A stretch of DNA of 64,000 nt. Source: Mustelus asterias. Taxonomy: Eukaryota. The stretch spans positions 97,960,001 to 98,024,000 of the forward strand of contig NC_135804.1 in the NCBI RefSeq assembly GCF_964213995.1. Reading direction: 5' to 3'. The notes beneath the pieces are model-generated. The model had not been told where the DNA came from. It searched no databases and saw only the letters and a list, made by a program, of their open reading frames with translations. Below are positions 1 through 63,874 of this stretch, piece by piece. Position 1 is the stretch's first letter; each line of letters opens with the position of its first letter. Made by a program: the position numbers and the translations under genes.

Positions 1-876
1 GGGAACTGCCTGCGGCCAGCATTTGTTGCCCATCCTAACTATTGTTAAACTAAGTGGCTTGTGAGGTCTTTTCAGTGGACAGTTACGAGTCAACCATAAT
101 GTCGTGGCTCTAAAGTCACTCGTAAACCAGACAGAATAAAGATAGAATCATAGAATCATACAACGCAGGAGCGGTCCTTCGGCCCATCAAATCCATACTA
201 ACACATTACAAACACCTGAACTCCCACCTAATCCCATCTGCTCGCACTTGGCCTATAGCTCTGAATGTTATGAGGTGCCAAGTGCTCATCCAGGCACTTT
301 TTAAAGGATGTGAGGCAACCTGCCTCCACCACCTTCTCAGGCAGCGCATTCTAGACCATCACCACCCTCTGGGTAAAAATGTTTTTCCTCACAACCCCCC
401 TAAATCACGTGCCTCTCAACTTGAACCTATGTCGCCTCATAACTGACCCTTCAACTAAGGGGAATAGCTGCTTCTTATCCACTCCGTCCATGTCTCTCAC
501 AATCTTGAATATCTCGATCAGGTCAGCCCTCAGTCTTCTTTGCTCCAACGAAAGCTACCCAAGCCTATTCAACCTCTCTTCATAACTTAAATGTTCCATC
601 CCAGGCAGCATCCTGGCAAATCTCCTTTGCACCACCTCCAGTGCAATCACATCCTTCCGATAATGTGGCGACCAGAACTGCACACAGTACTCTGGCTTTG
701 GCCTCACCAAAGTTCCATACAATTCCAACATGACTTCCCTGCTTTTGTAATCTATGTCACAATTGATAAAGGCAAGCATCCTATATGCCTTTTTCACCAC
801 CCTACGAACATGCCCTTCCGCTTTCAGAGATCTGTGGACAAACACGCCAATGTCCCTCTCTTCCACAGAATTTCCT

Positions 877-1155
877 GGGCAGCACGGTAGCACAGTGGTT
901 AGCACTGCTGCCTCACATTGCCAGGGACCTGGGTTTGATTCCCGGCTTGGGTCACTATCTGTGCGGAGTTTGCATGTTCTCCCTGGTGTTTGTGTGAGTT
1001 TCCTCTGGGTGCTCTGGCTTCCTCCACAGTCTGAAAGATGTGCTGGTTAGGTGCATTGTCTTGAACAGGCAGCAGAATGTGGCGACTAGGGGAATTTCAT
1101 TGTAACTTCATTGCAGTGTTAGTGTAAGCCTTACTTGTGATTAATAAATAAATAA
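877..1155 (+). mobile_element. tRNA-derived SINE, HE1-type head with alternative (Rex1-like) tail
   Basis: GGGCAGCACGGTAGCACAGTGGTTAGC (A box), GGGTTTGATTCCC (B box), HE1-type body, and tail ...TACTTGTGATTAATAAATAAATA. Confidence 0.88.
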
Positions 1156-1289
1156 GCTTCAACTTTTTCCTAGTGTCCTACCATTCATTGAGTACTTGTC
1201 AAATTACTCCTTCTAAAGTGTATCACCTCACACTTTTCAAGGTTAAATTCCATCTGCCACTCATCTGCCCATTTCACCATTGCGTCTAT

Positions 1290-2477
1290 GGGCTTGATTT
1301 TACCATTTGGAGTCTAAGGGCCGGAGCTGGGCGTAATGCAGATCCGAGCCCGGAATCCTCTTTGCAGCGCACCCATATGCTTTTTGCCGGCTCCGGTCCG
1401 ATCCGCGCAGTTGGCGGGGCTTAGCGCTGCCGGAACGATCGGAGCTCTGAACTGCGCATGCGCAGTTTGAAAAAAATCCGAAGCAGCGCGTCCGGGCGTG
1501 AAAGAAAAGAACAGCAGAGAGGGGGGGAGGATTGGGGGGAGGATGGACTTGGGAGAATCTTGCAAACTGAAAATAATGTAGCATCCTCTTTGTGCTGCCT
1601 AATTATCTATGGGAAAGGTAATTAAACTACAGCGTCCTAGTGAGCAATTAGTGACCTGTATAATACATTTGTGATCTGTAACTGGATCGTTGATGTCCCT
1701 GTAGCCCTGAGCCAGGTGGTCAAATGTTCAGAGTCATGTGGTGAACTTGGAAGAATTGTCCCCGTGGTGGAACTTGGTTGGAAATAAGATTCAAGGAGAT
1801 GACTAAATCTGGGAAATCAACCATAGTGAAAAGAAGTTTGTATTGGCAACTCTTCTCTCACATTCCATGGCAGATGTGCCCTTACTTATGAATGTGATTT
1901 GCATGGGCAACGTTGGGTGCAGCTAATCTGCCTCTGGAGCAGCCTTGGATCCTTTCTTTCATCCTGTTTTCATCTGAGCATTGCACAGAATTAGAGGAAT
2001 TCCCTTTGGAAGATAATGTCAAAATTATAATCGCAGGAACTAAAAACCTGACAGTCAAACATTTGGGAAAACATTTCAAAATATATATCCCCCCATCCAT
2101 GGGTGGTTAGCGGGGGGGGTCTGTGAAGGATGGTCGAGGAGGATGGTGACTTCACAAGGGCAGAGAGGGCTTCGGAGATTCCCCTGCAGAATAGAAATCC
2201 GCTTCGGATTTTTATTTAACAGGTCGCTAAAAGCGCGGATCCGGAACGGGCCAGAAGACGGTAAAGTGGGATTTGGCGGTAGAGTTGGGCGCGCGGTTCA
2301 TTAAGTCAATTTAAATGCATGCTAATACATTTAAATCGTCTGGCCGCCCGATTCGGGTGCGGACTGGACCCGCGCCCGAATCGGGTATCGGGATAGCCGC
2401 GATCTGCTCGGATTCGGGTGCAGATTGCGGTATAGGCCCGACGCCCAACTTTACTGTGATTAGGTAAAATTGGGCCC
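1290..2477. mobile_element. Non-autonomous TIR DNA transposon (PIF/Harbinger-like), 15-bp imperfect TIRs, 3-bp TSD TAT
   Basis: Termini GGGCTTGATTTTACC ... GGTAAAATTGGGCCC, flanked by TAT at 1287-1289 and 2478-2480. It splits a CR1 RT sequence cleanly. Confidence 0.85.
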
Positions 2478-4314
2478 TATATCTCCCTGTAGCCCAAGAC
2501 ACTCTGCCTCACTATTAACCACCCGTCTAATCTTTGTGTCATCCGTAAACATACTAATCCTACCTCCCACATCATCATCAATGTCATTTATATAAATGAT
2601 GAATAATAGGGGGCCCAACACAGATCCCTGTGGTACTGCATTGGACTCTGGCTTCCAGTTACTAAAACAGTCTTCTGTCATCTCCCTCTGTCTCCTACAA
2701 CTGAGCCAATTTTGAATCCACTTTATCAAATTACCCTGTGTCCCATATGAGTTTACCTTCTTTATAAGTCTCCCAGTTGGAACCTTGTCAAAGGTTTTGC
2801 TCAAATCCACATAAACTGCATTGACTGCACTACCCTCATCTACACAACTGGTCACCTCCTCAAAAAATTCAATCAAATTTGTTAGGCATGACCTCCCTCT
2901 GACAAAACCATGCTGACTATCCCTGATCAAGAGATAGATGCGCTCCTTCAGAAGTTTCTCTACCACTGACATGAGACTTACTGGTCTGTAGTTCCCTGGT
3001 TTATCTCTACAACCCTTCTTAAATAATATGAGAAGATAGCGAATTTCCTTTTTTAAAGCACATTAATGAATCAGATAGGTTTTATAACAATCAATAATTG
3101 TTGCGTGGTCCTTAGTTCTCAGGCTAGCTTCGTATTCCAGATTTATTAATTGAATTTCAAATTCCACTAGCTGCCACGGTGGGACTTGAACCTGTGTCAC
3201 CAGAGCATTAGGCTGGACCACTAGTCCAGTGACATTACCCCTATGCCACTCTCACTTCTTTGTTGAACAAAGCAAGAACCAATAAACAGATGAACAATCA
3301 GTTTTTGGTGGTGGCTGGTAATGGAAGAAGGTTAGTCAGCACAACAGATAATTATACCTCAAATAAAGGCATGGATCTTTTATGTCCAACTCATTCTTAT
3401 CAAAGTAATAAATTACATCCTATGTGATTGTGACAAGGGGTAGAATTTTCTGCCGGGACTTCCCGGGGAGTGTTTCCCTCTGTGGAGGCAGCTGGGAATT
3501 TGCGTGAGCCTAGCTTGTTAAATATGCACTGGGGGGTTTTGCAATGTTTTGCTGGATGACTCACAACCCGCCATCATATCAGGGCGCTAGTTTTAAAACC
3601 TGTTGGATATAATTGACCACAGTTGAAGAAAGAAGCTGGATTTCCAGGAAAACTCTGAGGCTGGAAGATGGACCTCCTCAAAGACACCGAACCTGGAAGA
3701 TCCACATAATAGGTGCTCCCCTCATCCACTGCTGCATGTTCCAGGGTCATTGGTTGCTGGAGGCCTATGTCCCAAACTCCAGAGGCAGCCCCAGATCTTC
3801 TTCATGTAAAAGCACATCATGTTGTCCAGACATATTGTGGATCAACTGGATCGATATGATTTCCTGCTTGTGGCCCAGATTCCATTCGGGTTTTTATCTA
3901 CATCCCGTTAGTGGGATGTAAATTGGTTTCAAGCCGGCCTCTGGTGTGAATTGTGACTCGCCATGGCAGGCAGTAGCAGAAGATCCTGCTGTCATTTTAC
4001 ATCAGCATGAAACCAATTATTGGAGCTTCCACTGCTCTAATCTGTCTTCATCCTTATCTACCTAATTGCATCCAGACTATCATATCTTTTCCTGCTCTCA
4101 CATGGCTACCTCTGCTGTTGCCACATGGATCCCCCTGGTTGTCCTCATCTATATATGCTATCCCTTGGCAACATAATTTGAAAACACAATATTAGTTTTC
4201 ACAAGTAGGCTGAAAACACTAAGCTCTACCTCACCATGACTTCTTTTGGCTTCTCCACTGTTGCTAAGTTGACCCTGGACTTGATGGATATCCAGTGTTT
4301 ATTTATTTGCTTGT

Positions 4315-41499: not shown

Positions 41500-42646
41500 T
41501 TGACACAAAGCTGGGTGGGAGGGTGCAGAGAACCTTCAGTGTGATTTGGACAAGTTGAGTGAGTGGGCAAATGAACAGCAGACGCAGTACAATTTGGACA
41601 AATGTGAGGTTATCCACTTTGGTAACAGAAATGGGAAGGCAGATTACATCTGAATTTCCATAAATGAGGAGAGGGGAATGTGCAATGAGACGTGGCTGTC
41701 CTCGTACAGCAGTCATTGAAAGCAAGCATGCAAGTGCAGCAGGTGGTAAAAAAAAGCAAATGGTACGTTGGTCATCATAGCGAGAGGATTCGAGTGCAGG
41801 AGCAGGGATGTCTTGAAGAAATTATACAGGGCCTTAGAGAGGCCACACCTGGAATATTGTGTGCCGTTTTGAACACCCTATCTGAGGAAGGTCATTCTTG
41901 CTCTCGAGGAAGTGCAGAGAACTTTTACCAGGCTGATTCCTGGAATGGTCGGTCTGACGTATGAGGATTGAGTCGGTTAGGATTGTACTCACTGGAATTC
42001 AGAAGAATGAGGGCAGATCGCATAGAAAGTTTTAAAATTCTAACAGGACTAGACAGGTGTGGTGGACCTCAGTTGTGCCTTTGTCCTATATGGACCACCG
42101 TTGTGTGTATTTGTCATACCTGGACACACCCCCTTCCAGTTTGGTTCCTCCCCTCGACACCTAGTATAAAGGTGGCTGTCTCCCCCCCCTTGTTCAGTCC
42201 AGGTCGGTTATTTGTTGGGATCTGCTCCTGATTCTGTTGTGAATAAAAGCCTACACTTGTATTGGCACACCGGTAGTCTTTCGCCTTATTGATAGCGCAT
42301 CAACAGGGTAGATGCAAGAAGGATGTTCCCGATCGTGGGTATGTCCAGAACCAGGGGTCACAATCTGAGGATACAGGTCGACCATTTAAGACAGAGATGG
42401 GGAAAGATTTCTTCACATAGAGAGTGGTCAGTCTATGGAATTCACTACCACAGCAAGTAGTTGAGGCGAAAATATTGAATGTTTTCAAGAAGCAGTTACA
42501 TATGGCATTTGCGGTGAAGCAGATCAAAGGATATGAGGGGAAGGTGGGATCAGGCTATTGGTTTGGATGATCAGCCATGATCATAATGAATGGTGCAGCA
42601 GATTTGAAGGGCTGAATGGCCTCCTCCTGCTGTTATTTTCTATGTT
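41500..42646 (+). mobile_element. CR1 3' fragment interrupted by a solo LTR
   Basis: DTKLGG...KCEVIHFG...RPHLEYCV.F..P...LGLYSLEFRRMR.D.IE.FKILTGLDR; 3'UTR ends GAATGGCCTCCTCCTGCT...TTTCTATGT. Confidence 0.88.
42058..42302 (+). mobile_element. Solo LTR (245 bp) of a Gypsy family related to 58105-63031, TSD ACAGG
   Basis: Termini TGTGGTGGACC...TAGCGCATCA; contains TATAAA, a TTCAGT Inr-like motif and AATAAA; ACAGG at 42053-42057 and 42303-42307. Confidence 0.88.
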
Positions 42647-42989: not shown

Positions 42990-44370
42990 TTACATACTAA
43001 CAGCATAGCTTCTAAGGCAGGTTGCTTCGCAGTTGAAGAGATCCTTGTACTTTATCATTTCTGGGGCCTGGTGTTGCAGAGCATGTGTACCTCCAGACCA
43101 AGTGTGATGCTGCTCCGACGACTTAGCAGCGGCCTTACGTTCTAGTTGACTATGCAAAACTTGAAACTGCCCTGTGTGCAATGAAAAGTGCCCACACTCT
43201 CTGTGTGGATGCTTTGTCTGCCATAGGCCCACAAGGTCCACCTGGGTATTTGGGATTGGTACTGCAAATGGGTCTAGTTCTCATAGCATTCGACTGAGTA
43301 ATACATTGCACTTTGCTCCAGTGTTAATCTTTGCCTCCAGTTTTGTGTTGTTACAAACCATGTTCAGGGAGGAGAAGATCTCACCCTTTTCAGTGATGGT
43401 GTCGACACTCTCACAGTAGAGTGTTGTTGGAGGCTGAGTTCCAGTTCATTCACCTTGCTGATGCTTCTAACTTGGAGGATTAATTGACTGCAGTGTGGCT
43501 GTTGTCAAAAGTAAGCTGCTGCGATTTCATTCTGCAATATTTTCTGAAGTGACTCCACTTTCCACATTTGTTGCAGCATTTACCATGTGCCAAACATGCT
43601 ATTCTGTTCTGGGGGTGATGTCCAGTAAAGTTGAGGCAGGGCATGACTGCAAAAACTTTACTTTCCCACCTAAGCTCCTTGCTGCTTTTCCAGACTGGAT
43701 GCAGACGCTAATGGATGTAGGTTTAAGTCATTCTCTCACAGCAGCTGTTTGTGGACTAGGTTTTTGTAGACCCCTCAGACTATTTGATCCCTGACTAACT
43801 CAGCAGTAAGAATGTCAAATGTACATTTCTTCACTAAGATTTCCAAAGTTGCCATGTATGATTGTATCGATTAGTTAGGTCTGTGATTTTTAGTGTTAAA
43901 CGTGTGCCTGTCTGACAGGCAAATATTCTCAAACTTTTTTAGAATTATTTTGGGGTCCTCTTTCTCCTCCTCCATTTGAAACACAAAGGACCTGAATTTC
44001 TCAATGGCCTTGTGGCCCGCTAGATTTAGTGAGGTGGAAGCTTGGACCTTTTTTGATTTGTCCAATAATTCAATATCAGAATATATACACCACTCCTTTT
44101 CAAACCTGAGCCAGTTTTTCATTATATTCTCATTGAATACGAGCAGGTTGATGCAGCAAAGTTGTCGTGCCATAACTGCCAACTCCTGACACCATGTAGA
44201 AGCGTTGAGCTCCCAGAGACTGGCAACCAAGGAATTGTAACAAACAATAATTTATTCACTAGCTCAGGAGACACTCCAGGCTTCTGCTTTGCTTGTGCTC
44301 TGGGGAGATCTGCTGTGCTTCCGTCATAAGACCTCTTAAGTAACCACGTCATCATATGACCACTCGGTCT
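42990..44370 (-). mobile_element. Old Gypsy LTR retrotransposon remnant (5' LTR piece, PBS, gag, zinc knuckle, protease)
   Basis: gag N-terminus NWLRFEKEWCIY...KVQA...LNLAG..AIEKF..F...EDPKIILKKFE; knuckle CNKCGKWSHFRKYC (about 43535-43580); protease KINTGAKCNV (about 43300-43335). Confidence 0.8.
44182..44194 (-). promoter_or_regulatory. Primer-binding site complementary to the tRNA-Leu 3' end
   Basis: Minus strand ...ACA|TGGTGTCAGGAGT is complementary to ACUCCUGACACCA-3' of tRNA-Leu(CAG-type). Confidence 0.75.
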
Positions 44371-44881: not shown

Positions 44882-46200
44882 ACATAGAACATAGAACATT
44901 ACTGCACAGTACAGGCCCTTCAGCCCTCGATGTTGCGCCAACCTGTGAAACCAATCTAAAGCCCCTCTAACCTACACTATTCCAATATCATCCATATGTT
45001 TATCCAATGACCATTTAAATGCCCTTAATGTTGACGAATCCACTACTGTTACAGGCAGGGCATTCCACACCCTGAGTAAAGAACCTACCTCTGACATCTG
45101 TCCTATATCTATCACCCCTCAATTTAAAGCTATGTCCCCTCGTGCTCGCCATCACCATCCGAGGAAAAAGGCTCTCACTGTCCACCCTATCTAATCCTCT
45201 GATCATCTTGTATGTCTCTATTAAGTCTCCTCTTAACCTTCTTCTCTCTAATGAAAACAGCCTCAAGTCTCTCAGCCTTTCCTCATAAGACCTTCCCACT
45301 ATACCAGGCAACATCCTGGTAAATCTCCTCTGCACCCTTTCCAATGCTTCCACATCCTCCCTATAATGCGGCGACCAGAACTGTACGCAATACTCCCAAG
45401 TGCGGCCACACCAGAGTTTTGTACAGCTGCAACATGACCTCATGTCTCCGAAACTCAATCTCTCTACCAATAAAAGCTAACACACCATACGCCTTCTTAA
45501 CAACCCTATCAACCTGGGTGCCAACTTTCAGGGATCTATGCACATGGACACCGAGATCTCTCTGCTCATCCACACTACCAAGTATCTTACCATTAGCCCA
45601 GTACTCTGTATCCCTGTTACTCCTTCCAAAGTGAATCACCTCACACTTATCCGCATTAAACTCCATTTGCCACCTCTCAGCCCAGCTCTGCAGCTTATCT
45701 ATGTCCCTCTGTAACCTGCAACATCCTTCCGCACTGTCCACAACTCCACCGACTTTAGTGTCATCCGCAAATTTACTAACCCATCCTTCTATGCCCTCAT
45801 CCAGGTCATTTATAAAAATGACAAACAGCAGTGGCCCCAAAACAGATCCTTGCGGTACACCACTAGTAACTGAACTCCAGGATGAACATTTCCCATCAAC
45901 CACCACCCTCTGTCTTCTTACAGATGGCCAATTTCTGATCCAAACCGCTAAATCACCTTCAATTCCATGCGTCCGTATTTTCTGCAATAGCTTACTGTGG
46001 GGAACCTTATCAAATGCTTTACTGAAATCCATATACACCACATCAACTACTTTACCCTTATCCACCTCTCTGGTCACCTTCTCAAAGAACTCAATAAGGT
46101 TGTGAGGCATGACCTACCCTTCACAAAACCATGTTGACCATCCCTAATCAAATTATTCCTTTCTAGATTATTATAAATCCTATCTCTTATAATCCTTTCC
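44882..46200 (-). mobile_element. Young CR1 (HER1-like) LINE, 5'-truncated, RT nearly intact
   Basis: ORFs 45361-46110 and 45015-45470 (YMDFSKAFDKVPH, VPQGSVLGP, FADDTK, EYCVQFWSPHY) are separated by one frameshift; tail (TGTTCTA)n. Confidence 0.95.
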
Positions 46201-48795
46201 ATATGAAACAACTTTTAAAAGAAAATAAATTTAAAAGTGTAAAGAAATATGCTGACACATTCTATTTACTTCCTTGTCACCGTCTTTCATTCCCCGACCT
46301 TTCCACTCGCCCAACCCCTCCCACTCCCCAACTCTCCCACTCCCTGACCCTCCCACACCCTGAGCCTCCCACTCGCCGCCTCTCCTGCTCCCTTAACCTC
46401 CCACTCCCTGACCCTCCCACACTCTGATCCTCTAGCTCACTGCCTCTCCCGCTCCCTGATAAGATGTAATTAAGTAAAAATACATTCACATTGGAACCAA
46501 ATAAAGATAAGTTTAATGATATTTTCTCTTGCAATTGATTTTCCTCAGTTTTTAAAATAGATTTTCTAAATCTGCTTTTACTGCAATACTATTTCAAAAC
46601 TTTCAATGTGTTATTTACAAAAATATACATATAATATTATAATCCCTGGAAATACCAATATCTCTTTAGAAAAGAGATGAATTTCCCAGCAACTGTTGGG
46701 AAGAATCGCAAAACAAGTATTCACGTCTAAGATATTTACTGAAACAAACAAACTAAAAGCACCATTAACTGCACATTACTTAATAGGCAACTAATATGCC
46801 AAACTACAGAAAAAGTATTTCCTTACTAACTAAACAACACAATTGATGTATTCTTCATGATCTGGTTCTACTTCACATCATACTGCTTGCAGACATGTCC
46901 TCCAACATGAACTCTTTTTGACTTTCCGCAGGCTTCCTTCAGCCTTCCATGCCAGGGTGAATCTTCCGGCATCCTTCGATCATCAATCCACCCAGTCTTC
47001 TGAATGAGCCCAAAATGACTTCTAGTGACAAGGCCCACTCCAGCAACTACTTGGTCCTTAAATCTCCAGTTCCGTCCCTTACTACAGATAATCAATTCTC
47101 ACCATCACTGTCCTGGGTGGCGAACATGAAATAATCTTTTTATCTGCTTTTCACAGCAGCAGTTCTTTCTGTCTCCCTCTCTGTGCCTCTGTGTGTCTCT
47201 GTATCCAGAAAACCAGCTGCCTTTCTTTTGTTTCAAGGTCTGAAAACTGTCACTTGATTTCTATAGGTTTCAGTTACAAATCTCATGGGCCTGTCTTCAA
47301 ATAGCTTTTAGAATGATCACCATCCCCATCTTCAGGACATGCTATTTCACCTAAAAATTTTAAAGGAGGCTGTTTAAAACGTGACCATCTGATAAAGTCC
47401 CACATTCTTAACAGTAAAAACACTTCATTTAGCTGATTCCGCTTATCATTTCTTGAAAGTAAATCAATGGTGTAAAATTTGATATTGTTACACCATTTTT
47501 TGACTTTAATTGGTTGTTTAATATATCAATATCACAGTAAGATGTCCTAGGTGATGTGTACATGAAATGGCCACTACCATTTTGGCTCGGTGCTCCTGGT
47601 GGCTCGCCTGAAATAAGCATTGAGCTGATTACAATATGATTCTCAGGCTTCTATTTGGCCCCTTTTGAGAAATCAGTGCCTGGGAACATTCGATTCAATC
47701 ATTCTTAAGCTCACAGATTGAATCATGCAGGGGATACTCCAGAATCTGAATATAGCATTGAAATTCAAAGGGATCTGCAACTCCATTCAGGTAAATCTCT
47801 GAATAGTGGCTTTGGACTGCTGGAGATACTTGGAGCCTTGCGTTGCCCGTTTTTGCTCAGTTTTCACAGTTATCTGCAGTACAGTATTGCTGAAAAGTTA
47901 ACCCATGGCTGCAGGTGAATAGTTTTATTTCACTGGCACACCTTGGCATTCAGAAACATGGTATGCTGTAGGCATTGTGATTAAGTCTGCCACATCAGAG
48001 AGAACAGCAGCAGCAGAAAGCATGGCAGCGCCGACCTGTGAATGATCAAAGAAAGTGGCAAAGAAGCAAAGGACACAAGAGGTCTGTGTCTTTCAGAAAT
48101 AAAGGGCCTGAACATGAAAAATGTCTTGAAAGTGTACTACAGCTTGCCCAACTGCCTACAGGCAAATTGCACTTTTTAAACCAGACTTGCGTTTTTCTTA
48201 GAAATAGGCAAAGACACTGACCAAAACATGGCTGATTTTGCAAAGTGACCACCTGCTGGAAAATCATATGTGAATTATACTGACTAGGAGGACAAGGAAT
48301 GTTGAACCTGAGGAAGTGTGAAGGCCCATCCACTTCAAACGGAGATATCTGAAAGCAAGGTATGGAAAATGCACAATTCTCCTGGGTTTGTGAGGATAAT
48401 GGAGACTTTTCCATACATCTCATCAGATATCTAAAAAAAATCCTCTTGATTTATCTCTCAAAATGTGTAAAATGTTCTGAGATGAATGCAAAACATAACC
48501 ATTTCCCCGTGTGGGACCACACAGGGAAAGTGGGTTAAAAATAGTCTGATGATCAGCAGAAGAACAAAGAAAAAGAAGGATCTCCATCTCTCTCCCTCTC
48601 TCTTGCTGGAGGCAGGTTGCCTAGTAGGCACAAGCAGAAAGAAACAGGGTAGCCCCTTCAGTTAACCCTGCAGCAAAAACCAGGTCATCAGTCCCTCTGG
48701 GGATAAACCAAAAAGTGTTTCTAATAGACAACAAGGACACCTCCAAAGTCTACCAGAATCATTCAACTTAACGGTCACAACATACCAGCATCTAT

Positions 48796-55751: not shown

Positions 55752-58104
55752 TGTGGCAGGAGGGTGGGGATCAAAACAGTAGGTCAGTAAGTACTGAGGC
55801 TGGGGTCAATTTGGGGGCCAGGGCAAGGCTAGCTAAGAAGAAGAGCATTCTGGAGCAGGATGACCTGAGTGGGCCTGGAGGTCTGGAGTGCATCTGCTTC
55901 AATGCGAGGAGCATAACGGGTAAGACAGACGAACTTAGGGCCTTAATGTTTACGCGGAATTTGGATGTGGTTGCGGTGACGGAGACATGGTTAAAAGAAG
56001 GACAGGATTGGCAGCTGAATATTCCGGGGTATAAGTGTTTTAGGCGAGACAGAGGAGGGGCTAAAAAAGGTGGGGGAGTAGCGGTATTAGTTAGGGAGCA
56101 TATTACAGCGGTGCAGAGGGTGGACAATTTTGAGGGGTCATGTAATGAGTCGCTGTGGGTGGAGCTCAGAAACAGGAAAGATGCAGTCACTATGCTGGGG
56201 GTATACTACAGGCCACCCAACAACCCACGGGAAGTGGAGGAATGGATATGTCAGGAGATTCTGGATATGTGCAGAAAAAATAGGGTTGTTGTAGTGGGAG
56301 ACTTCAATTTCCCTGGTATAGACTGGAAAGTGCTTAGGGCCGGGGGTTTGGACGGGGAGGAATTTGTAAAATGCGTACTGGAAGGTTCTTTGGAACAGTA
56401 TGTAGATAGCCCAACTAGAGAGGGGGCTATACTGGATCTAGTTCTGGGAAATGAGCCCGGTCAGGTCGTCAAAGTTTCGGTAGGGGAACATGTGGCAAAT
56501 AGTGACCACAACTCTGTTAACTTTAGGATAGTAATGGACAAGGACAAGTGTTGTCCTAAGGATAGGGTGCTAAATTGGGAGAAGGCTAACTATAGCCGGA
56601 TTAGGCAGGAATTGGTGGCCGTTGATTGGGAGAAGCTGTTTGGGGGTAAGTCCATGTCTGGCATGTGAGAGTCTTTTAAGGAACAGTTGATAAGGCTGCA
56701 GGACAGGCATGTGCCTGTAAAAAAGAAGGATAGGAAAGGTAGGATTCGAGAGCCATGGATAACCAGGGAAATTGAGGATCTGAGGCAACTGAAAACAGAT
56801 GGAGCTCTGGAGGAATACAGAGAGAGTAGGAAAGAACTCAAACCGGGTGTTAGAAGGACAAAAAGAGGTCACGAAATGTTCTTGGCAGACAGGATTAAGG
56901 AGAATCCTAAGGCATTTTATTCATATGTCAGGAACAAAAGAGTTGTCAGGGAAAAAGTCGGACCTCTCAGGGACAAAGGAGGGGAATTATGCTTAGAACT
57001 CAAGGGAATAGGGGAGATCCTAAATGAATACTTTGCATTGGTATTCACAAAAGAGAGGGACTTGTTGACTGGGAGTGTCTCAGAGGGAGGTGTTGACCCA
57101 TTAGAGAGAATCTCCATTACAAGGGACGAAGTGTTAGGTTTTTTAGGTAATATTAAAACTGACAAATCCCCAGGGCCTGATGGCATCTATCCTAGACTGC
57201 TCAGGGAGACAAGAGATGTACATGCTGGGCCTCTGATGGAAATCTTTGTCTCTTCATTGGACACAGGTGAGGTCCCTGAGGATTGGAGGATAGCGAATGT
57301 GGTACCATTATTTAAGAAGGGTAGCAGGGATAACCCGGGTAATTATAGGCCAGTGAGTTTGACGTCCGTGGTAGGGAAGGTGTTGGAGAGAATTCTTAGA
57401 GACAGGATGTATGCGCATTTAGAACGGAACAATCTCATTAGTGACAGACAGCATGGTTTTGTAAGAGGGAGGTCATGCCTTACAAATTTGGTGGAGTTTT
57501 TTGAGGAAGTGACAAAAACTGTTGACGAAGGAAGGGCCGTGGATGTCGTCTATGTGGAGTTCAGTAAGGCATTTGACAAAGTCCCTCATGGCAGGTTGGT
57601 AAGAAGGTTAAGGCTCATGGGATACAAGGAGAGGTGGCTAGATAGATAGAAAACTGGCTTGGCCACAGGAGACAGAGGGTAGCAGTCGAAGGGTCTTTTT
57701 CCAGCTGGAGGTCTGTGACCAGCGGTGTTCCGCAGGGCTCTGTACTGGGACCTCTGCTATTTGTGATATATATAAATGATTTGGAAGAAGGTGCAACTGG
57801 TGTTATTAGCAAGTTTGCGGATGACACGAAGATGGCTGGACTTGCGGATAGCGACGAACATTGTCGGACAATACAGCAGGATATCGATAGGCTGGAAAAT
57901 TGGAGGGAGAAATGGCAGATGGAATTTAATCCAGATAAATGTGAAGTGATGCATTTTGGAAGAACTAATGTAAGGGGGAGTTATACAGTAAATGGCAGAG
58001 CAATCAAGATTATAGAAACACAGAGGGACCTAGGTGTGCAAGTCCACAAATCCTTGGAGGTGGCAGCACAGGTGGAGAAGGTGGTGAAGAAGGCATATGG
58101 TATG
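55742..58104 (+). pseudogene. CR1 ORF2 (APE endonuclease and reverse transcriptase), disrupted; C-terminus continues at 63037-63520
   Basis: CFNARS, VTETW, YYRPP, GDFN, LDLV, SDH; NYRPVSLTS, QHGF, PQGSVLGP, FADD. Stop at 56666-56668 and a frameshift near 57600. Confidence 0.92.
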
Positions 58105-58420
58105 TGATGCGCTACTCAAACACGAAGCCTGAAGCTCGGTAAATGAAAGGCTTTTATTTACTGTAATGAAGCAGCCAGTAATTATATACACTATCCCAGA
58201 CTGAAGGGGTCCCGGCCAGAGCAGGGACTCTTATACCTCTCCCAGGAGGCGGAGCCCGACTGGGATGTGCCACAACACTACAGTACAAAGGTGTAACAAA
58301 CCCACCCTAACCCCAACAGCAACAATAGCACAACCCAACAGTAACATATGTACATTCTTGTAGTACTGGCCAGACCCTGGCTCAGTACTATCCAGTGGGA
58401 ACCAACGATGGTTCACCACA
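58105..58420 (-). repeat. 3' LTR
   Basis: Direct repeat of 62716-63031 with 3 substitutions by manual comparison. Confidence 0.97.
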
Positions 58421-58434
58421 TTCACCCCTCCTTT
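58421..58434 (-). promoter_or_regulatory. Polypurine tract
   Basis: Minus strand AAAGGAGGGGTGAA immediately before the 3' LTR. Confidence 0.85.
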
Positions 58435-58482
58435 GAGAACAAAGGCCGGCGAGGTACAAAAACAGAATAAAGTGTCAGTAGT

Positions 58483-61400
58483 CTATAAGTTCAGACGGTC
58501 AGGGGGACCGCACCGTTGTTGTGACCTCCTCAATACCGGCGGTGACACCGGAGTAGGCACTTGCGGTGACGTTCTCCCCAAGGCGGCGTCCAGCTGTTCT
58601 TCCACAGACTCACAGGCCGGTTGACCCTGAGGTGACGGTAGTCCATGGGATCCGGACACGCCCTGCAGTGGCGACCATCTTCTGGGCTCAGGCAAGCTGT
58701 ATATGGGAGTAAAATGGTTAAGCAATGGTCCCGATGCTGCCCGCGCCGTGTCCGGGGAAGAAACAAGAGATAAAGGGTTTGTAACAGGGGGTATGGGAGC
58801 GACAGGGGTTGCTACGTCCCCTGCTGGCACCAGGTCTCGGATCGAGACCGTATCCTCTCGCCCGTCAGGGTATGCCACATAGGCATACTGAGGGTTGGCG
58901 TGGAGGTGGCGTGGCCTGTTCAACCAACGGGTCGGACTTGCGGGCCCTTACATGTCGCCACAGGAGGACGGGTCCTGAGTACGTCAACCAAGACGGTAAT
59001 GAGGTCCCCGAGGAAGACTTCCGAGGGAATGAAAACATCCTCTCGTGGGGAGTAGCATTGGTTGCCGTACACAGGAGGGATCGAATAGAATGGAGCGCAT
59101 CAGAGAGCACCTCTTGCCAACGGGAGACTGGAAGACCTTTTGACTTCAACGCCAGTAAGACAGCCTTCCAGACTGTAGCATTCTCACGTTCCACCTGTCC
59201 GTTACCCCTATGGTTGTAGCTTGTGGTCCTACTAGAGGCAATCCCGTATGAGAGCAGGAATTGCCTCAAGTCATCGCTCATGAACGACGAGCCCCTGTCG
59301 CTATGGATGTAGCCGGGGTACCCGAACAGGGTAAAGAGATCACGGAATGCCTTGATAACCGTGGCAGCGGATGTATCCGAGCAGGGAACAACAAAAGGGA
59401 ACCGAGAGTACTCGTCAATGATATTGAGGAAGTACACATTCCGATCTGTTGAGGGAAGGGGGCCCTTAAAATCGACACTCAGTCTCTCGAAGGGACGAGT
59501 GGCCTTGACTAAATGTGCCCGGTCAGGTCGGTAAAAGTGCGGTTTGCATTCCGCGCAAACCCGACAGCTCCTTGTTACTGACCTGACGTCCTCCACCGAG
59601 TAAGGCAGGTTGCGGGCTTTTATGAAGTGGTAGAGCCGAGTGACCCCAGGATGGCATAGGTCATTATGGAGGGCCTGCAAACGGTCCTCCTGCATACTAG
59701 CGCATGTTCCACGCGAGAGGGCATCCGAGGGCTCATTGAGTTTCCCTGGACGGTACATGATGTCGTAGTTATAGGTGGAGAGTTCAATTCTCCACCGCAA
59801 GATCTTGTCATTCTTGATCTTGCCCCACTGCGTGTTGTTAAACATGAACGCCACGGACCGCTGGTCTGTGATCAGGGTGAACCATTTTCCCGCCAAGTAA
59901 TGTCGCCAGTACCTGACAGCCTCCACAATGGCCTGGGCCTCCTTTTCCACCGCTGAATGCCGAATTTCGGGGCCTCGGAGGGTGCGGGAAAAAAATGCGA
60001 CGGGCCTGCCCGCCTGGTTAAGTGTGGCGGCCAGGGCGAAATCAGATGCATCGCTCTCCACCTGAAAGGGGATGGACTCGTCTACCGCGTGCATCGTAGC
60101 TTTCGCGATGTCGTCTTTCAATTTCTCGAAGGCCAATCGGGCCTCTGGCGTTAGGGGAAAAGTCGTGGACTTAATGAGCGGACGGGCTTTGTCCGCGTAG
60201 CTGGGAACCCACTGCGCATAATAAGAGAAGAAGCCTAAGCATCTTCTCGGTGCTTTTGCACTAGCAGGCAAGGGAAGTTCAGAAAGGGGGCGCATACGGT
60301 CTGGATCAGGGCCAATGACCCCGTTTTCCACCACGTATCCTAGGATGGCTAAACGGCACGTACGAAACACACACTTCTCCCTGTTGTAGGTCAAGTCCAG
60401 GCGAGATGCAGTGCGTAGGAAGTTCAGGAGATTCGTGTCGTGGTCCTGCTGGTCATGGCTGCAGATGGTGACATTATCCAGGTACGGGAAGGTAGCCTGC
60501 AGCCCGTTCTGGTCCACCATTCGGTCCATAGCACGCTGGAAGACCGAGACCCCGTTGGTGACACCAAGGGAACCCTGAGAAAGTGATACAAGCGACCATC
60601 CGCCTCAAAAGCCGTGTATTGTCGGTCCTCTGGGCGAATGGGGAGTTGGTGGTAGGCAGACTTGAGGTCTATGGTGGAGAACACCCGGTACTACGCAATT
60701 TGATTGACCATATCAGATATGCGCGGGAGAGGATACGCATCCAGCTGCGTATATCGCTTAATGGTCTGACTGTAGTCAATGACCATCCGGGGTTTGTTCC
60801 CGCTCTTGACCACCACTACCTGCGCTCTCCACGGACTAGCGCTGGGTTGTATGATCCTTTCTTTGAGGAGCCGCTGAACCTCAGATCTAATGAAGATCCG
60901 ATCCTCAGCACTGTAACGCCTACTTTTAGTCGCGATGGGCTTGCAGCCTGGCACAAGATTCTGGAACAAGGAGGGTGTGGTGATCTTCAGCGTCGAGAGG
61001 CTGCAGGCGGGGCGCGTTGGGCAATTTGGAGGCTGCTGCTGTTTTCCCACTGCCAGTGAAGGGAGTGGCCCACCGTACTGTAGGATTACACTCCTCAAGT
61101 GGACCATAAAGTTTAGTCCGAGAAGTATTGGCGCGCAAAGATACGGCAACACGAGGAGCTTGAAATGCTCGTAAACTGTGCTTTGCACCTTCAAGGTTAC
61201 CAAGCAACTCCCTCGCATGGCAACAGACCGGGACCTTGATGCCATAGAGATTGTCTGTTTGGCAGGTTGAATCTGGAGTCCACACCGCTTCACAGTGTCT
61301 GGGTGGATAAAGCTCTCAGTGCTCCCGCTGTCAAACAGACAATAAATCACGTGGTCATTTACCTGGATATTCATCATAGATTTGTCAAGTCTATGAGGCT

Positions 61401-62667
61401 TGGCCTGCTCCAGGATGATCGACGCCACCGTTGGTTCATGAGCGCCACTGCAGGCAGCTGAAATCGATGAGGAGGACCCCTGCTGGTCGTTCGTGGTCAG
61501 TGTCGACCAACATGGCCGCTTCCATGAGTCGCACGTGGGTGAGGGCGCCAAACTCAGCGACCCCTGGTGGTCACACACCTCCGACTCCGTCGACCGTAAT
61601 GGCGTCGTCTTGGCCTCGCACGTGGACGAACTCCTCGATGACTTCGACGACGAAGACCCGAGCTCTGAAGAATCGCAGGCCGCACTGCCGTTCCTGGGAT
61701 TAGATCGGCACACTTTCGAATAGTGCCCTTTTTTACCGCATGCAGTGCACAACACAGCTTTAGCGGGACACCGTTGCCGAGTATCATAGAAATCATAGAA
61801 ACCCTACAGTGCAGAAGGAGGCCATTCGGCCCATCGAGTCTGCACCGACCACAATCCCACCCAGGCCCTACCCCGACATATTTACCCGCTAATCCCTCTA
61901 ACGTACACATCCTAGGACTCTAATGGGCAATTTTTAACCTGGCCAATCAACCTAACCCGCACATCTTTGGACTGTGGGTGCTTCGCTCCCCCACAGAAAT
62001 AGCACCGCGGGCCGCCCGGGGCTGCTGCCGTCGTCTGGCCCGAGTGTGAGCACGCCATTACGCAGTATTTCGAACCCGAGGGACGAGGAGGGATTGGCGA
62101 CTGCTCCTGCCACGTTGTCTCCACATGGTCCTCCGGATATAATACTAAGCTTTAGGAGGCCGTCTCGAGCATCTCCGCCAGCTCGATGGCCTGGGTAAGA
62201 TCAAGGTTACCCTTCTCCAACAGTTTAAGTCGAATGTACGACGATCCGACCCCCGCCACAAACGCATCTCGGGCGAGGTCGTTCATGCTCTGCTCAGCCG
62301 ACACAGCTTTGCAGTTACAGCCCCTGGCTAGCTGTAGGAGCTCGTTCGCATATTCCTCCATCGTTTCGCCAGACTGCCGTCATCGAGTGGCTAGGAGGTA
62401 ACGAGCGTGTATCTCATTAGGTGGTTTGATATAACGCTTCTTCAGAAGCTCGAGGGCCTTAGTATAATTGGTGGCCGCACGGATCACGAGGTAGACAGTG
62501 TCGCTTACCCTCGCATGGAGGACCCAGAGTCTGTCATCATCTGTGGTGACCGCTGCGGAGGCTGCCAGGTAGTCTTCGAAACACTTCAGCCAGTGGTCGA
62601 AGGTGTTAGAAGCGCCCACCGCACGTGGATCTAGTGTAAGGCGTTCCAGCTTCAGGATTTGCTCCAT
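58483..62667 (-). pseudogene. Gypsy gag-pol polyprotein, disrupted by stops, frameshifts and a SINE
   Basis: Starts MEQILKLERLTLDP; knuckles CYFCGGAKH and CTACGKKGHYSKVC; protease LFDSGS; RT YLDNV; RNase H ESDAS; integrase H..LCHPG...CRVC, VDFKGP, HSDRG, NGQVER; ends RRSQQRCGPPDRLNL*. Stops at about 62380, 62152 and 60691; frameshifts near 60565 and 58915. Confidence 0.95.
61784..61978 (-). mobile_element. 5'-truncated HE1 SINE inserted in the gag zinc-knuckle region
   Basis: Nearly identical to the 3' half of 63521-63874; tail (ATTTCTATG)n; splits AKH|TRQRCPA. Confidence 0.9.
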
Positions 62668-62715
62668 ACTCTCTTTTTTTTTCTTCGACGAGAGTTTAAC
62701 GACAGTAAATAAAAT

Positions 62716-63031
62716 TGATGTGCTACTCAAACACGAAGCCTGAAGCTCGGTAAATGAAAGGCTTTTATTTACTGTAATGAAGCAGCCAGTAATTATATAC
62801 ACTATCCCAGACTGAAGGGGTCCCGGCCAGAGCAGGGACTCTTATACCTCTCCCAGGAGGCGGAGCCCGACTGGGATGTGCCACAACACTACAGTACAAA
62901 GGTGTAACAACCCCACCCTAACCCCAACAGCAACAATAGCACAACCCAACAGTAACATATGTACATCCTTGTAGTACTGGCCAGACCCTGGCTCAGTACT
63001 ATCCAGTGGGAACCAACGATGGTTCACCACA
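62716..63031 (-). repeat. 5' LTR
   Basis: TGTGGTGAACC...TAGCACATCA; contains TATAAGAG, TTCAGT, TATATAA and AATAAA on the element's sense strand. Confidence 0.97.
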
Positions 63032-63520
63032 GTATGCTTGCTTTTATAGGATGGGGTATAGAATATAAAAGCTGGAGTCTGATGTTGCAGCTGTATACTA
63101 CGCTGGTTAGGCCACATTTGGAGTACTGCGTCCAGTTCTGGTCGCCGCACTACCAGAAGGACGTGGAGGCTTTAGAGAGAGTGCAGAGAAGGTTTATAAG
63201 AATGTTGCCTGGTATGGAGGGCCTTAGCTATGAGGAGAGATTGGGTAAACTGGGCTTGTTCTCCCTGGAAAGATGGAGAATGAGGGGAGACCTAATAGAG
63301 ATGTACAAAATTATGAAGGGTATAGATAGGGTGAACAGTGGGAAGCTTTTTCCCAGGTCGGAGGTGACGACCACGAGGGGTCACAGGCTCAAGGTGAGAG
63401 GGGTGAGGTATAACTCAGATATCAGAGGGACGTTTTTTACACAGAGAGTGGTGGGGTCCTGGAATGCGCTGTCAAGTAGGGTGGTGGAGGCAGACACGCT
63501 GGCATCGTTTAAGACTTACC

Positions 63521-63874
63521 TTAGAAATCTTAGAAATCTTAGAAACCCTACAGCACAGAGAAAGGCCATTCGGCCCATCGAGTCTGCACCGACCACAATC
63601 CCACCCAGACCCTACCCCCATATCCCTACATATTTACCCACTAATCCCTCTAACCTACGCATCCCAGGACACTAAGGGCAATTTTAGCATGGCCAATCAA
63701 CCTAATCCGCACATCTTTGGACTGTGGGAGGAAACCGGAGCACCCGGAGGAAACCCACGCAGACACGAGGAGAATGTGCAAACTCCACACAGACAGTGAC
63801 CCAAGCCGGGAATCGAACCCAGGTCCCTGGAGCTGTGAAGCAGCAGTGCTAACCACTGTGCTACCGTGCCGCCC
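63521..63874 (-). mobile_element. Full-length young HE1 SINE (CR1-type tail)
   Basis: Head GGGCGGCACGGTAGCACAGTGGTTAGC, B box GGTTCGATTCC, tail (ATTTCTAAG)n; splits CR1 KTYL|DSHM. Confidence 0.93.

What the first reader, a model, noticed from the sequence alone, without database searches (positions are those of the whole stretch)
62702..62799. Gypsy element with no tRNA PBS: the PBS position is a perfect 13-nt complement of its own LTR
Seen: after the 5' LTR (sense ...CATCA) comes A-TTTTATTTACTGT (62714-62702), with no TGG. It is the exact reverse complement of ACAGTAAATAAAA inside the LTR (62775-62763), 48 nt away, which includes the AATAAA signal. When paired, the 3' end of the LTR segment points at the U5 end, the geometry a minus-strand primer needs. 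A TATATAA box starts 24 nt upstream of that segment; a second TATA/Inr pair further upstream is the one shared with the solo LTR. Known: Tf1/sushi chromoviruses self-prime by pairing the transcript 5' end with the PBS, followed by RNase H cleavage. This element looks Mag-like, lacks a chromodomain, and contrasts with the tRNA-Leu PBS at 44182. Inference: tRNA-independent self-priming outside the Tf1 group, and/or a hairpin that masks the 5' LTR poly(A) signal.
Basis: partly seen in the sequence, partly recalled or inferred. Interest (0 to 1): 0.75.

Follow-up and report, generated by a model that had tools for sequence, protein, structure and literature searches.

The report
Self-priming Gypsy with fossil priming by-products
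This young jumping gene and its relatives across animals carry no tRNA landing site; the spot where DNA copying starts pairs instead with a stretch of the element's own end repeat, and the genome holds mirror-image insertions joined exactly at that pairing, so the group likely starts copying itself with a piece of its own RNA.

Summary
Observation confirmed. The 13 nt after the 5' LTR (62714-62702) are the exact complement of 62775-62763; no TGG. The feature is clade-wide: 41 of 41 two-LTR elements pair at 10 or more of 12 positions, one nucleotide after the LTR's CA; 10 of 12 pairs change on both sides; 0 of 13 tRNA-type controls pair. The clade is separate from chromoviruses (AU p 0.021). 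A predicted by-product was found: 37 genomic junctions where the site runs on as an inverted copy of the LTR; 19 of 20 inserts with two U3 ends have exact 5-bp target duplications, so they formed before integration, likely from plus-strand strong-stop DNA that had copied the primer. One correction: the promoter shared by 19 of 19 shark elements lies 50-55 nt (once 74) upstream of the arm's end; the near TATA is in 5 of 19, so the arm is probably not the RNA's 5' end as in Tf1. No RNA start or cleavage was tested. This scan noted the same pairing before in animal Gypsy elements on other DNA; my paper searches found no description.

The parts
62716..63031 (-). 5' LTR, 316 nt, TG...CA
62763..62775 (-). 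Arm in R (ACAGTAAATAAAA), predicted primer; predicted cut between 62763 and 62762
   Evidence: sequence; covariation; the cut is inferred
62764..62769 (-). AATAAA poly(A) signal inside the arm
   Evidence: predicted paired in the 5' LTR, mostly open in the 3' LTR
62702..62714 (-). Primer-binding position, exact complement of the arm, after a 1-nt spacer (62715)
62840..62846 (-). Distal TATA box, conserved in 19 of 19 shark elements (one has TAGAAAG)
62811..62815 (-). Initiator-like TCAGT; predicted +1 at 62813, 33 nt after TATA, 51 nt before the arm's end
   Evidence: start site inferred from motifs only
62856..62865 (-). GC-box-like motif before the TATA box (18 of 19 shark elements)
62793..62799 (-). 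Near TATATAA, only in the window's family (5 of 19)
58483..62667 (-). gag-pol (gag, zinc knuckle, protease, RT with YLDN, RNase H, integrase, no chromodomain); broken in this copy by stops, frame changes and a SINE
61783..61978 (.). SINE fragment inserted in gag
   Evidence: match to 63527-63728
58421..58434 (-). Polypurine tract
58105..58420 (-). 3' LTR, with the second copy of the arm at 58152-58164
63032..63036 (-). Target-site duplication CATAC, upstream copy
58100..58104 (-). Target-site duplication CATAC, downstream copy
42058..42302 (+). Solo LTR of a sister family, duplication ACAGG, same promoter spacing (31 nt, then 53 nt to the arm's end)

Best explanation
The site after the 5' LTR pairs with a 13-nt arm of the element's own R region, and this arm is likely the primer of reverse transcription, predicted to be freed by a cut after its final AAA. 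Shown: the pairing, its fixed register (CA, one unpaired base, then the duplex), its covariation across families, and integrated mirror-image by-products joined at that register. Inferred: transcription starts at the distal initiator (62813), so the arm lies 39-51 nt inside the RNA; the RNA folds, and the element's RNase H cuts after AAA (by analogy with Tf1), giving a 5' fragment of about 50 nt whose last 13-16 nt are paired; RT copies U5 and the rest of R and jumps to the 3' R between the arm and the poly(A) site. Plus-strand strong-stop DNA copies the primer's end; displaced copies pair through that end with the arm of their own or another plus strand, are extended to the U3 start and are inserted with two U3 ends. 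The same duplex would also hide the 5' poly(A) signal. Odds: self-priming in any form 0.85; within that, 5' copy from the distal start 0.5, arm at the very 5' end 0.2, 3' copy 0.15.
For: Own family: 52 of 60 copies pair at 13 of 13, with a T-A to C-G double change in a subfamily. Two-LTR elements: 41 of 41 pair at 10 or more of 12 positions, 29 perfectly; G-U in 2 of 492 cells; controls 0 of 13; own LTR mean 11.8 against 8.1 across families. 10 of 12 pairs change on both sides, 97.6% of cells paired against 34-48% when slid. No TGG in the 8 nt after the LTR in 41 of 41. The spacer never pairs with the base after the arm (0 of 41) and the arm ends in A in 40 of 41; the Mag-like TGG controls have the same 1-nt spacer. 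Fold-back junctions: 26 and 11 matches, reversed-pattern controls 0; inverted halves end at the LTR's first base, flanks are not inverted, 16 of 18 have exact 5-bp duplications and 3 more by eye. Ty3 makes displaced dead-end plus strong-stop DNA that holds 12 nt copied from the primer (PMC5371799, section 2.2).
Against: No RNA start, cleavage product, primer or particle DNA was observed. The start site rests on motifs in one genome; invertebrate-type LTRs have no TATA box upstream of the arm. None of the 37 by-product junctions ends its inverted part at the predicted +1, and left-right differences show no break there. The Tf1 'pretzel' side duplexes are not supported: leader-loop pairing beats shuffles (10 or fewer of 200) in 1 of 22 families and loop folding in 2 of 22. 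In 5 of 41 elements both LTRs share an arm that mismatches the site. L086 and L087 show no pairing (7 of 12). The 41 elements are about 20 related families, not independent. A template switch at the inverted repeat during plus-strand elongation could give similar by-products without the arm being the primer.
Confidence: 0.85

Rival explanations
1. Tf1-identical variant: the RNA starts at the arm (from the near TATA box or a TATA-less start), so the primer is the first 13-16 nt.
For: Near TATATAA 24 nt before the arm. In L056 an initiator-like TCATT sits exactly at the start of a 17-nt arm. Paired lengths are short (12-19 nt). In chromovirus L390 a TATA-like box lies about 37 nt before the arm (by eye).
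Against: Near box in 5 of 19 shark elements; distal GC-box/TATA/initiator set in 18-19 of 19 with 31-34 nt spacing and in the solo LTR.
Confidence: 0.2
2. The 3' copy of the arm primes: the genomic RNA's 3' R pairs with the site, is cut or trimmed back to AAA, and the 38 nt of R upstream of the arm give the homology for strand transfer.
For: Would explain why R starts well upstream of the arm while little R is left downstream. In 3 of 37 by-products (L394, L396, L425) the inverted half runs on through the purine tract into pol.
Against: Most inverted halves stop at the LTR's first base, as expected of a plus strong-stop DNA template. The 5' arm is 48 nt from the site and is predicted to pair first (probability 0.8-0.97). 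The three long cases also fit pairing of plus DNA with RNA or full-length DNA.
Confidence: 0.15
3. The hairpin only hides the 5' poly(A) signal; the primer is something else.
For: AATAAA or ATTAAA lies in the arm's 3' end in 31 of 41 5' LTRs. Predicted unpaired probability 0.01-0.03 in the 5' LTR against 0.45-0.87 in the 3' LTR.
Against: Pairing is kept without a canonical hexamer in the arm (L047, L051 family, L081, L118; L048, L050). Masking needs no 1-nt register to the LTR end, yet 41 of 41 have it. It leaves no primer site. It does not predict the by-products.
Confidence: 0.1
4. A host RNA (tRNA half or other small RNA) binds the site.
For: The anticodon loop of tRNA-Thr(AGT) matches 6-8 nt of the needed primer. 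Half-tRNA priming is known in copia elements (PMC6317226, passages).
Against: That match lacks the primer's 3' end. There are 24 different 12-mers in 41 elements, each fitting its own LTR best. Only 26 tRNA sequences of 7 anticodons were available, so the search is partial.
Confidence: 0.03
5. Chance or a one-off local inversion.
For: The sequence is A+T rich.
Against: Shuffles, cross-family test and covariation.
Confidence: 0.01

Closest known systems
Tf1, Tf2 (Schizosaccharomyces pombe), Tj1 and the Tf1/sushi group of chromoviruses
   Same: Ty3/Gypsy order of domains; no tRNA site; the site after the 5' LTR pairs with the element's own R (PMC7175516, PMC10085805, PMC4600332; passages).
   Different: No chromodomain or Tf2-type SH3 domain; separate branch; arm predicted 39-51 nt inside the RNA, not its first 11 bases; arm overlaps the poly(A) signal; three-duplex 'pretzel' not supported.
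Tcn1 clade and copia TAR lineage (Houba, Osr-1): self-priming predicted from sequence
   Same: Self-complementary primer site; TAR shows that the trait can arise outside chromoviruses (PMC6317226, passages).
   Different: Plant and fungal elements; TAR is Ty1/copia.
Mag lineage of Gypsy (Mag, SURL, Jule, Gulliver)
   Same: No chromodomain, wide animal range, 1-nt spacer before the site; Mag-like elements of this genome are the nearest group in my small tree (SH-aLRT 94-96).
   Different: The Mag-like elements here have TGGCGA sites and no self-pairing; RT motifs differ by eye from all named rows of the alignment; about 30% identity over RT-RNase H.
Ty3 plus-strand strong-stop dead-end DNA
   Same: A displaced plus strand that ends in a copy of the primer (PMC5371799, section 2.2).
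   Different: In Ty3 the copied end is tRNA-derived and has no partner in the LTR; here it pairs with R and gives integrated palindromes.

Membership tests
Ty3/Gypsy LTR retrotransposon | gag-protease-RT-RNase H-integrase order between LTRs, purine tract, target duplication | tested here: met
Tf1/sushi group (chromoviruses) | Chromodomain at the integrase C-terminus | tested here: not met
   None in the window ORFs or in P0007 and P0011, present in controls L373, L374, L390
Tf1/sushi group (chromoviruses) | RT-RNase H groups with chromoviruses | tested here: not met
   Separate branches, SH-aLRT 100 and 97-98; AU p 0.021 against joining them. Quick trees; the outgroups are unnamed chromodomain-bearing elements and their neighbours, not Tf1 or sushi themselves
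Tf1/sushi group (chromoviruses) | Primer site complementary to own LTR | tested here: met
Tf1/sushi group (chromoviruses) | Self-primer is the 5' end of the RNA | tested here: inconclusive
   Motifs point to a start 38 nt upstream; no RNA ends available
Tf1/sushi group (chromoviruses) | Three-duplex 'pretzel' structure | tested here: inconclusive
   A stem starts within the first bases after the arm in most families, but side duplexes rarely beat shuffles
Tf1/sushi group (chromoviruses) | RNase H cleavage frees the primer | not testable with these tools
   needs biochemistry
Mag lineage | RT groups inside the A, B or C clades with named members | tested here: inconclusive
   No named reference could be put in the tree; nearest to Mag-like shark elements on long branches; Mag-like label by eye
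Mag lineage | tRNA-type TGG site (recalled as typical; seen in the Mag-like controls) | tested here: not met
   0 of 41
MolGy, PolGy or LGF clades of molluscs and annelids | RT/RNase H placement with their members | not testable with these tools
   Sequence files of PMC8556966 and the tree file of PMC6238403 could not be read; the clade may already bear one of these names

The most novel reading that the evidence does not exclude
A widespread animal Gypsy lineage invented self-priming independently of Tf1, using an internal stretch of R that ends in the poly(A) signal rather than the RNA's first bases (a capped fragment of about 50 nt, or the 3' copy), and its copied primer end makes plus-strand DNA pair with itself so often that the host genome holds a class of 540-612 bp palindromic inserts with two U3 ends: a fossil record of the priming step.
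Probability: 0.5. Interest if true: 0.8.

Novelty: new variant of a known kind. Interest (0 to 1): 0.7.

Why it matters
Self-priming is proven only for yeast Tf1 and assumed for its kin. A second, unrelated Gypsy lineage with relatives in sharks, rays, cnidarians, a rotifer, a nematode, an octopus, a butterfly and a crinoid would make it a repeated invention and allow comparison of how RNase H picks the cut. The predicted internal primer differs from the Tf1 rule. The palindromic inserts give a genome-only test for self-priming that can be run on any lineage, and they are short inverted repeats that may yield hairpin RNA or fragile sites (inference). Annotation tools that require a tRNA site would miss or mis-call these elements (inference).

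Tried and rejected
Sequencing runs: no RNA holder listed; four runs were contigs only and gave no RNA start or end. Loose hairpin pattern in the genome: 771 matches against 567 for the control, mostly chance. Search for poly(A)-tailed processed copies: 0. Viral contigs: no relative. Chromodomain search in the genome: 17 hits; the 5 inspected showed no retroelement frame, so no own-genome sushi control. PF24626 hits were Gmr1-like elements; the two with a readable LTR end (L151, L162) have TGG sites and no self-pairing. Rfam on 62500-63100: one chance hit. Naming the clade from supplements failed. The careful tree did not finish; quick trees were used. One search returned nothing through a script error and was redone. 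Considered: that the lack of G-U pairs proves the site is rewritten from the primer each cycle. Rejected as proof, because in Ty1 and Ty3 the site is not inherited from the primer, although Tf1 cDNA often keeps a primer copy. Left-right variant mapping in 16 by-products did not locate the start site.

Full report
The element. Window 58105-63031 (- strand) is a 4.9-kb LTR retrotransposon with 316-nt LTRs 99.05% identical, target duplication CATAC and a purine tract. Pfam finds a zinc knuckle, protease, RT, RNase H and integrase, and no chromodomain. This copy is broken by stops, frame changes and a SINE; other copies have open frames of 1,335-1,417 codons from the same gag. The genome is 3.68 Gb; the closest named proteins are from sharks and rays at 71-80% identity, then from a rotifer, a nematode, cnidarians, an octopus, a butterfly and a crinoid at 53-59%.

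Observation. 0 of 200 shuffles reach the observed pairing.

Within the family. Of 60 rows (two searches; three loci appear in both), 52 pair at 13 of 13, 4 at 12, 1 at 11, 1 is cut short and 2 have indels. One subfamily has C in the arm with G in the site where the other has T with A. Copies with long open frames (L201, L208, L210, L219) keep the pairing; L222 has one G-U and an indel in the mapping.

Across families. I took elements whose two LTRs fix the LTR end: the window, 18 of 20 stretches fetched from the genome (L254 and L262 had no LTR pair) and 22 of 93 contig loci. Of the 34 loci with a repeat I dropped 12: four contig overlaps, four other repeats, three repeats that stop short of the LTR end, one duplicate. 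All 41 pair at 10 or more of 12 positions starting one base after CA; 29 are perfect; 2 of 492 cells are G-U; a control 12-mer further downstream never reaches 11; 0 of 13 tRNA-type elements of the same genome reach 10 (L366 had no clean CA end and was left out; L259's end was set by hand). There are 24 different site 12-mers. On 24 representatives, 10 of 12 pairs change on both sides, 0 of 500 shuffles reach the score and slid registers give 34-48%; relatedness inflates the shuffle test, the slid control less so. Of 12 imperfect 5' arms, 6 have a perfect 3' LTR arm (decay after insertion), 5 share the mismatch in both LTRs, 1 is mixed. Of the other 71 loci, 15 had a gag start with enough upstream DNA: 10 scored 11-12 of 12 in a scan that looked for the pairing, L053 and L062 pair fully by eye and L085 nearly, L086 and L087 do not.

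Placement. In quick maximum-likelihood trees of RT-RNase H (60 of 80 extracted rows; 26 rows) the clade is one branch (SH-aLRT 100), apart from chromodomain-bearing elements and their neighbours; joining the two is rejected at p 0.021. It falls next to Mag-like elements of this genome (94-96), on long branches. No named reference was in the tree, so the clade's published name, if any, is unknown; unreadable supplements of PMC8556966 and PMC6238403 bear on this.

Promoter. All 19 shark elements have GGTATAA (one GGTAGAA) followed 31-34 nt later by the A of CAGT (one CAAT); 18 have a GC-box-like motif before it. That A lies 50-55 nt before the arm's end in 18 and 74 nt in one; the solo LTR gives 31 and 53. 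The near TATATAA is in 5 of 19. That TATA-initiator spacing of about 30 nt marks a polymerase II start is established knowledge, recalled. So the arm probably lies inside R. In Tf1 the primer is the first 11 bases, cut by RNase H (PMC7175516).

By-products. If plus-strand strong-stop DNA copies the primer, its 3' end is complementary to R. I searched for LTR end + site + continued reverse complement of R and found 26 matches for the window's family and 11 for a sister family, controls 0. The inverted part starts at the exact register and usually runs through the predicted start and TATA box to the LTR's first base. Of 18 rows with both U3 starts recognised, 16 have an exact 5-bp duplication, 1 has 4 of 5, and 1 (L394) runs on into pol; flanks are not inverted. 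L409, L421 and L426 add three exact duplications by eye: 19 of 20 inserts with two U3 ends, 17 of 18 distinct sites since two pairs are duplicated loci. Five more (L395, L398, L406, L410, L417) have one U5 end, an internal switch and a 4-5 bp duplication. L394, L396 and L425 run on into pol; L393 shares a locus with L394; the remaining rows are truncated or rearranged. Exact duplications with non-inverted flanks mean integrase inserted molecules made beforehand (inference). In L414 and L415 the halves come from different variants across U3 and R, so two molecules took part; about half the others differ only by private changes. For scale, a 33-base pattern for the normal junction of one subfamily has 179 matches against 14 by-product rows of that type; the patterns differ in strictness. 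The simplest route is pairing of displaced plus strong-stop DNAs, which Ty3 is known to accumulate (PMC5371799). Such DNA is templated by the 5' end of the minus strand, so site letters at its end would be copied from the primer. This supports use of the site as a primer site by a primer with the arm's sequence; it does not show the primer's length or which LTR copy supplies it.

Poly(A) signal. A canonical hexamer lies in the arm's end in 31 of 41 5' LTRs and never only upstream of the arm, as needed if some R must remain after the cut. Folding predicts it hidden in the 5' LTR and mostly open in the 3' LTR. It is likely a second effect, not the cause.

Literature. Ten searches of open-access full text found self-priming for Tf1/sushi, Tcn1 and copia TAR, and nothing on this clade or on two-U3-end palindromes; subscription journals, Repbase and GyDB were not searched. 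Seen as passages: PMC6934838, PMC6317226, PMC6238403, PMC2871265, PMC8556966, PMC4600332, PMC5341516, PMC11042837, PMC10085805, PMC5006619, PMC3601003, PMC7175516; passages and section 2.2: PMC5371799; one supplement part: PMC2871265 file 3. Levin 1995 and 1996, Lin and Levin 1997 and 1998 and Butler 2001 were seen only as citations. Earlier notes of this scan report the same pairing in animal Gypsy elements of other genomes; look-ups for the upstream promoter and the palindromes returned nothing.

Verdict. A real, clade-wide feature that works like Tf1 self-priming in a lineage that fails the Tf1/sushi membership tests: a new variant of a known kind, with sequence evidence only. Interest 0.7.

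Noticed in passing
window 60480-60470 region (RT motif); L263, L270-L272 families; The RT active-site motif reads YLDN instead of YxDD in all shark families with a readable motif and many others, including young copies with long open frames; several deeper families keep YLDD.
   Followed up: partly
L391-L427 (G000): Palindromic inserts of 540-612 bp with two U3 ends and 5-bp target duplications; not checked for transcription or hairpin RNA.
   Followed up: yes
window 44195-43400 (-): Decayed second LTR element: CA then TGGTGTCAGGAG, and a gag remnant with a zinc-knuckle-like stretch. tRNA-Leu identity recalled only.
   Followed up: partly
window 42058-42302 (+): Solo LTR of a sister family of the same clade, duplication ACAGG.
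   Followed up: yes
window 57300-58104 and 63032-63490: The element is inserted in a LINE-like repeat that matches other copies at 45065-46201 and 320-3027; family not determined.
   Followed up: no
L351-L365 (G000): A young 7-kb Gypsy family with 4-bp target duplications, a 4-nt T spacer before its TGG site and open frames up to 1,996 codons.
   Followed up: partly
L390:4290-4879: A chromodomain-bearing element whose site after the LTR (ATAACTCAAGTT) pairs with its own LTR and begins with ATAAC like Tf1's; read by eye.
   Followed up: partly
L031-L044, L371-L390: Prokaryotic genome bins hold eukaryotic LTR retrotransposon contigs (contamination).
   Followed up: no
L380:1-2703: A Gypsy pol frame with a dUTPase domain at its N-terminus.
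   Followed up: no
L427: An element whose 5' LTR is followed by the inverted R-U3 copy and then by a second site and gag.
   Followed up: no
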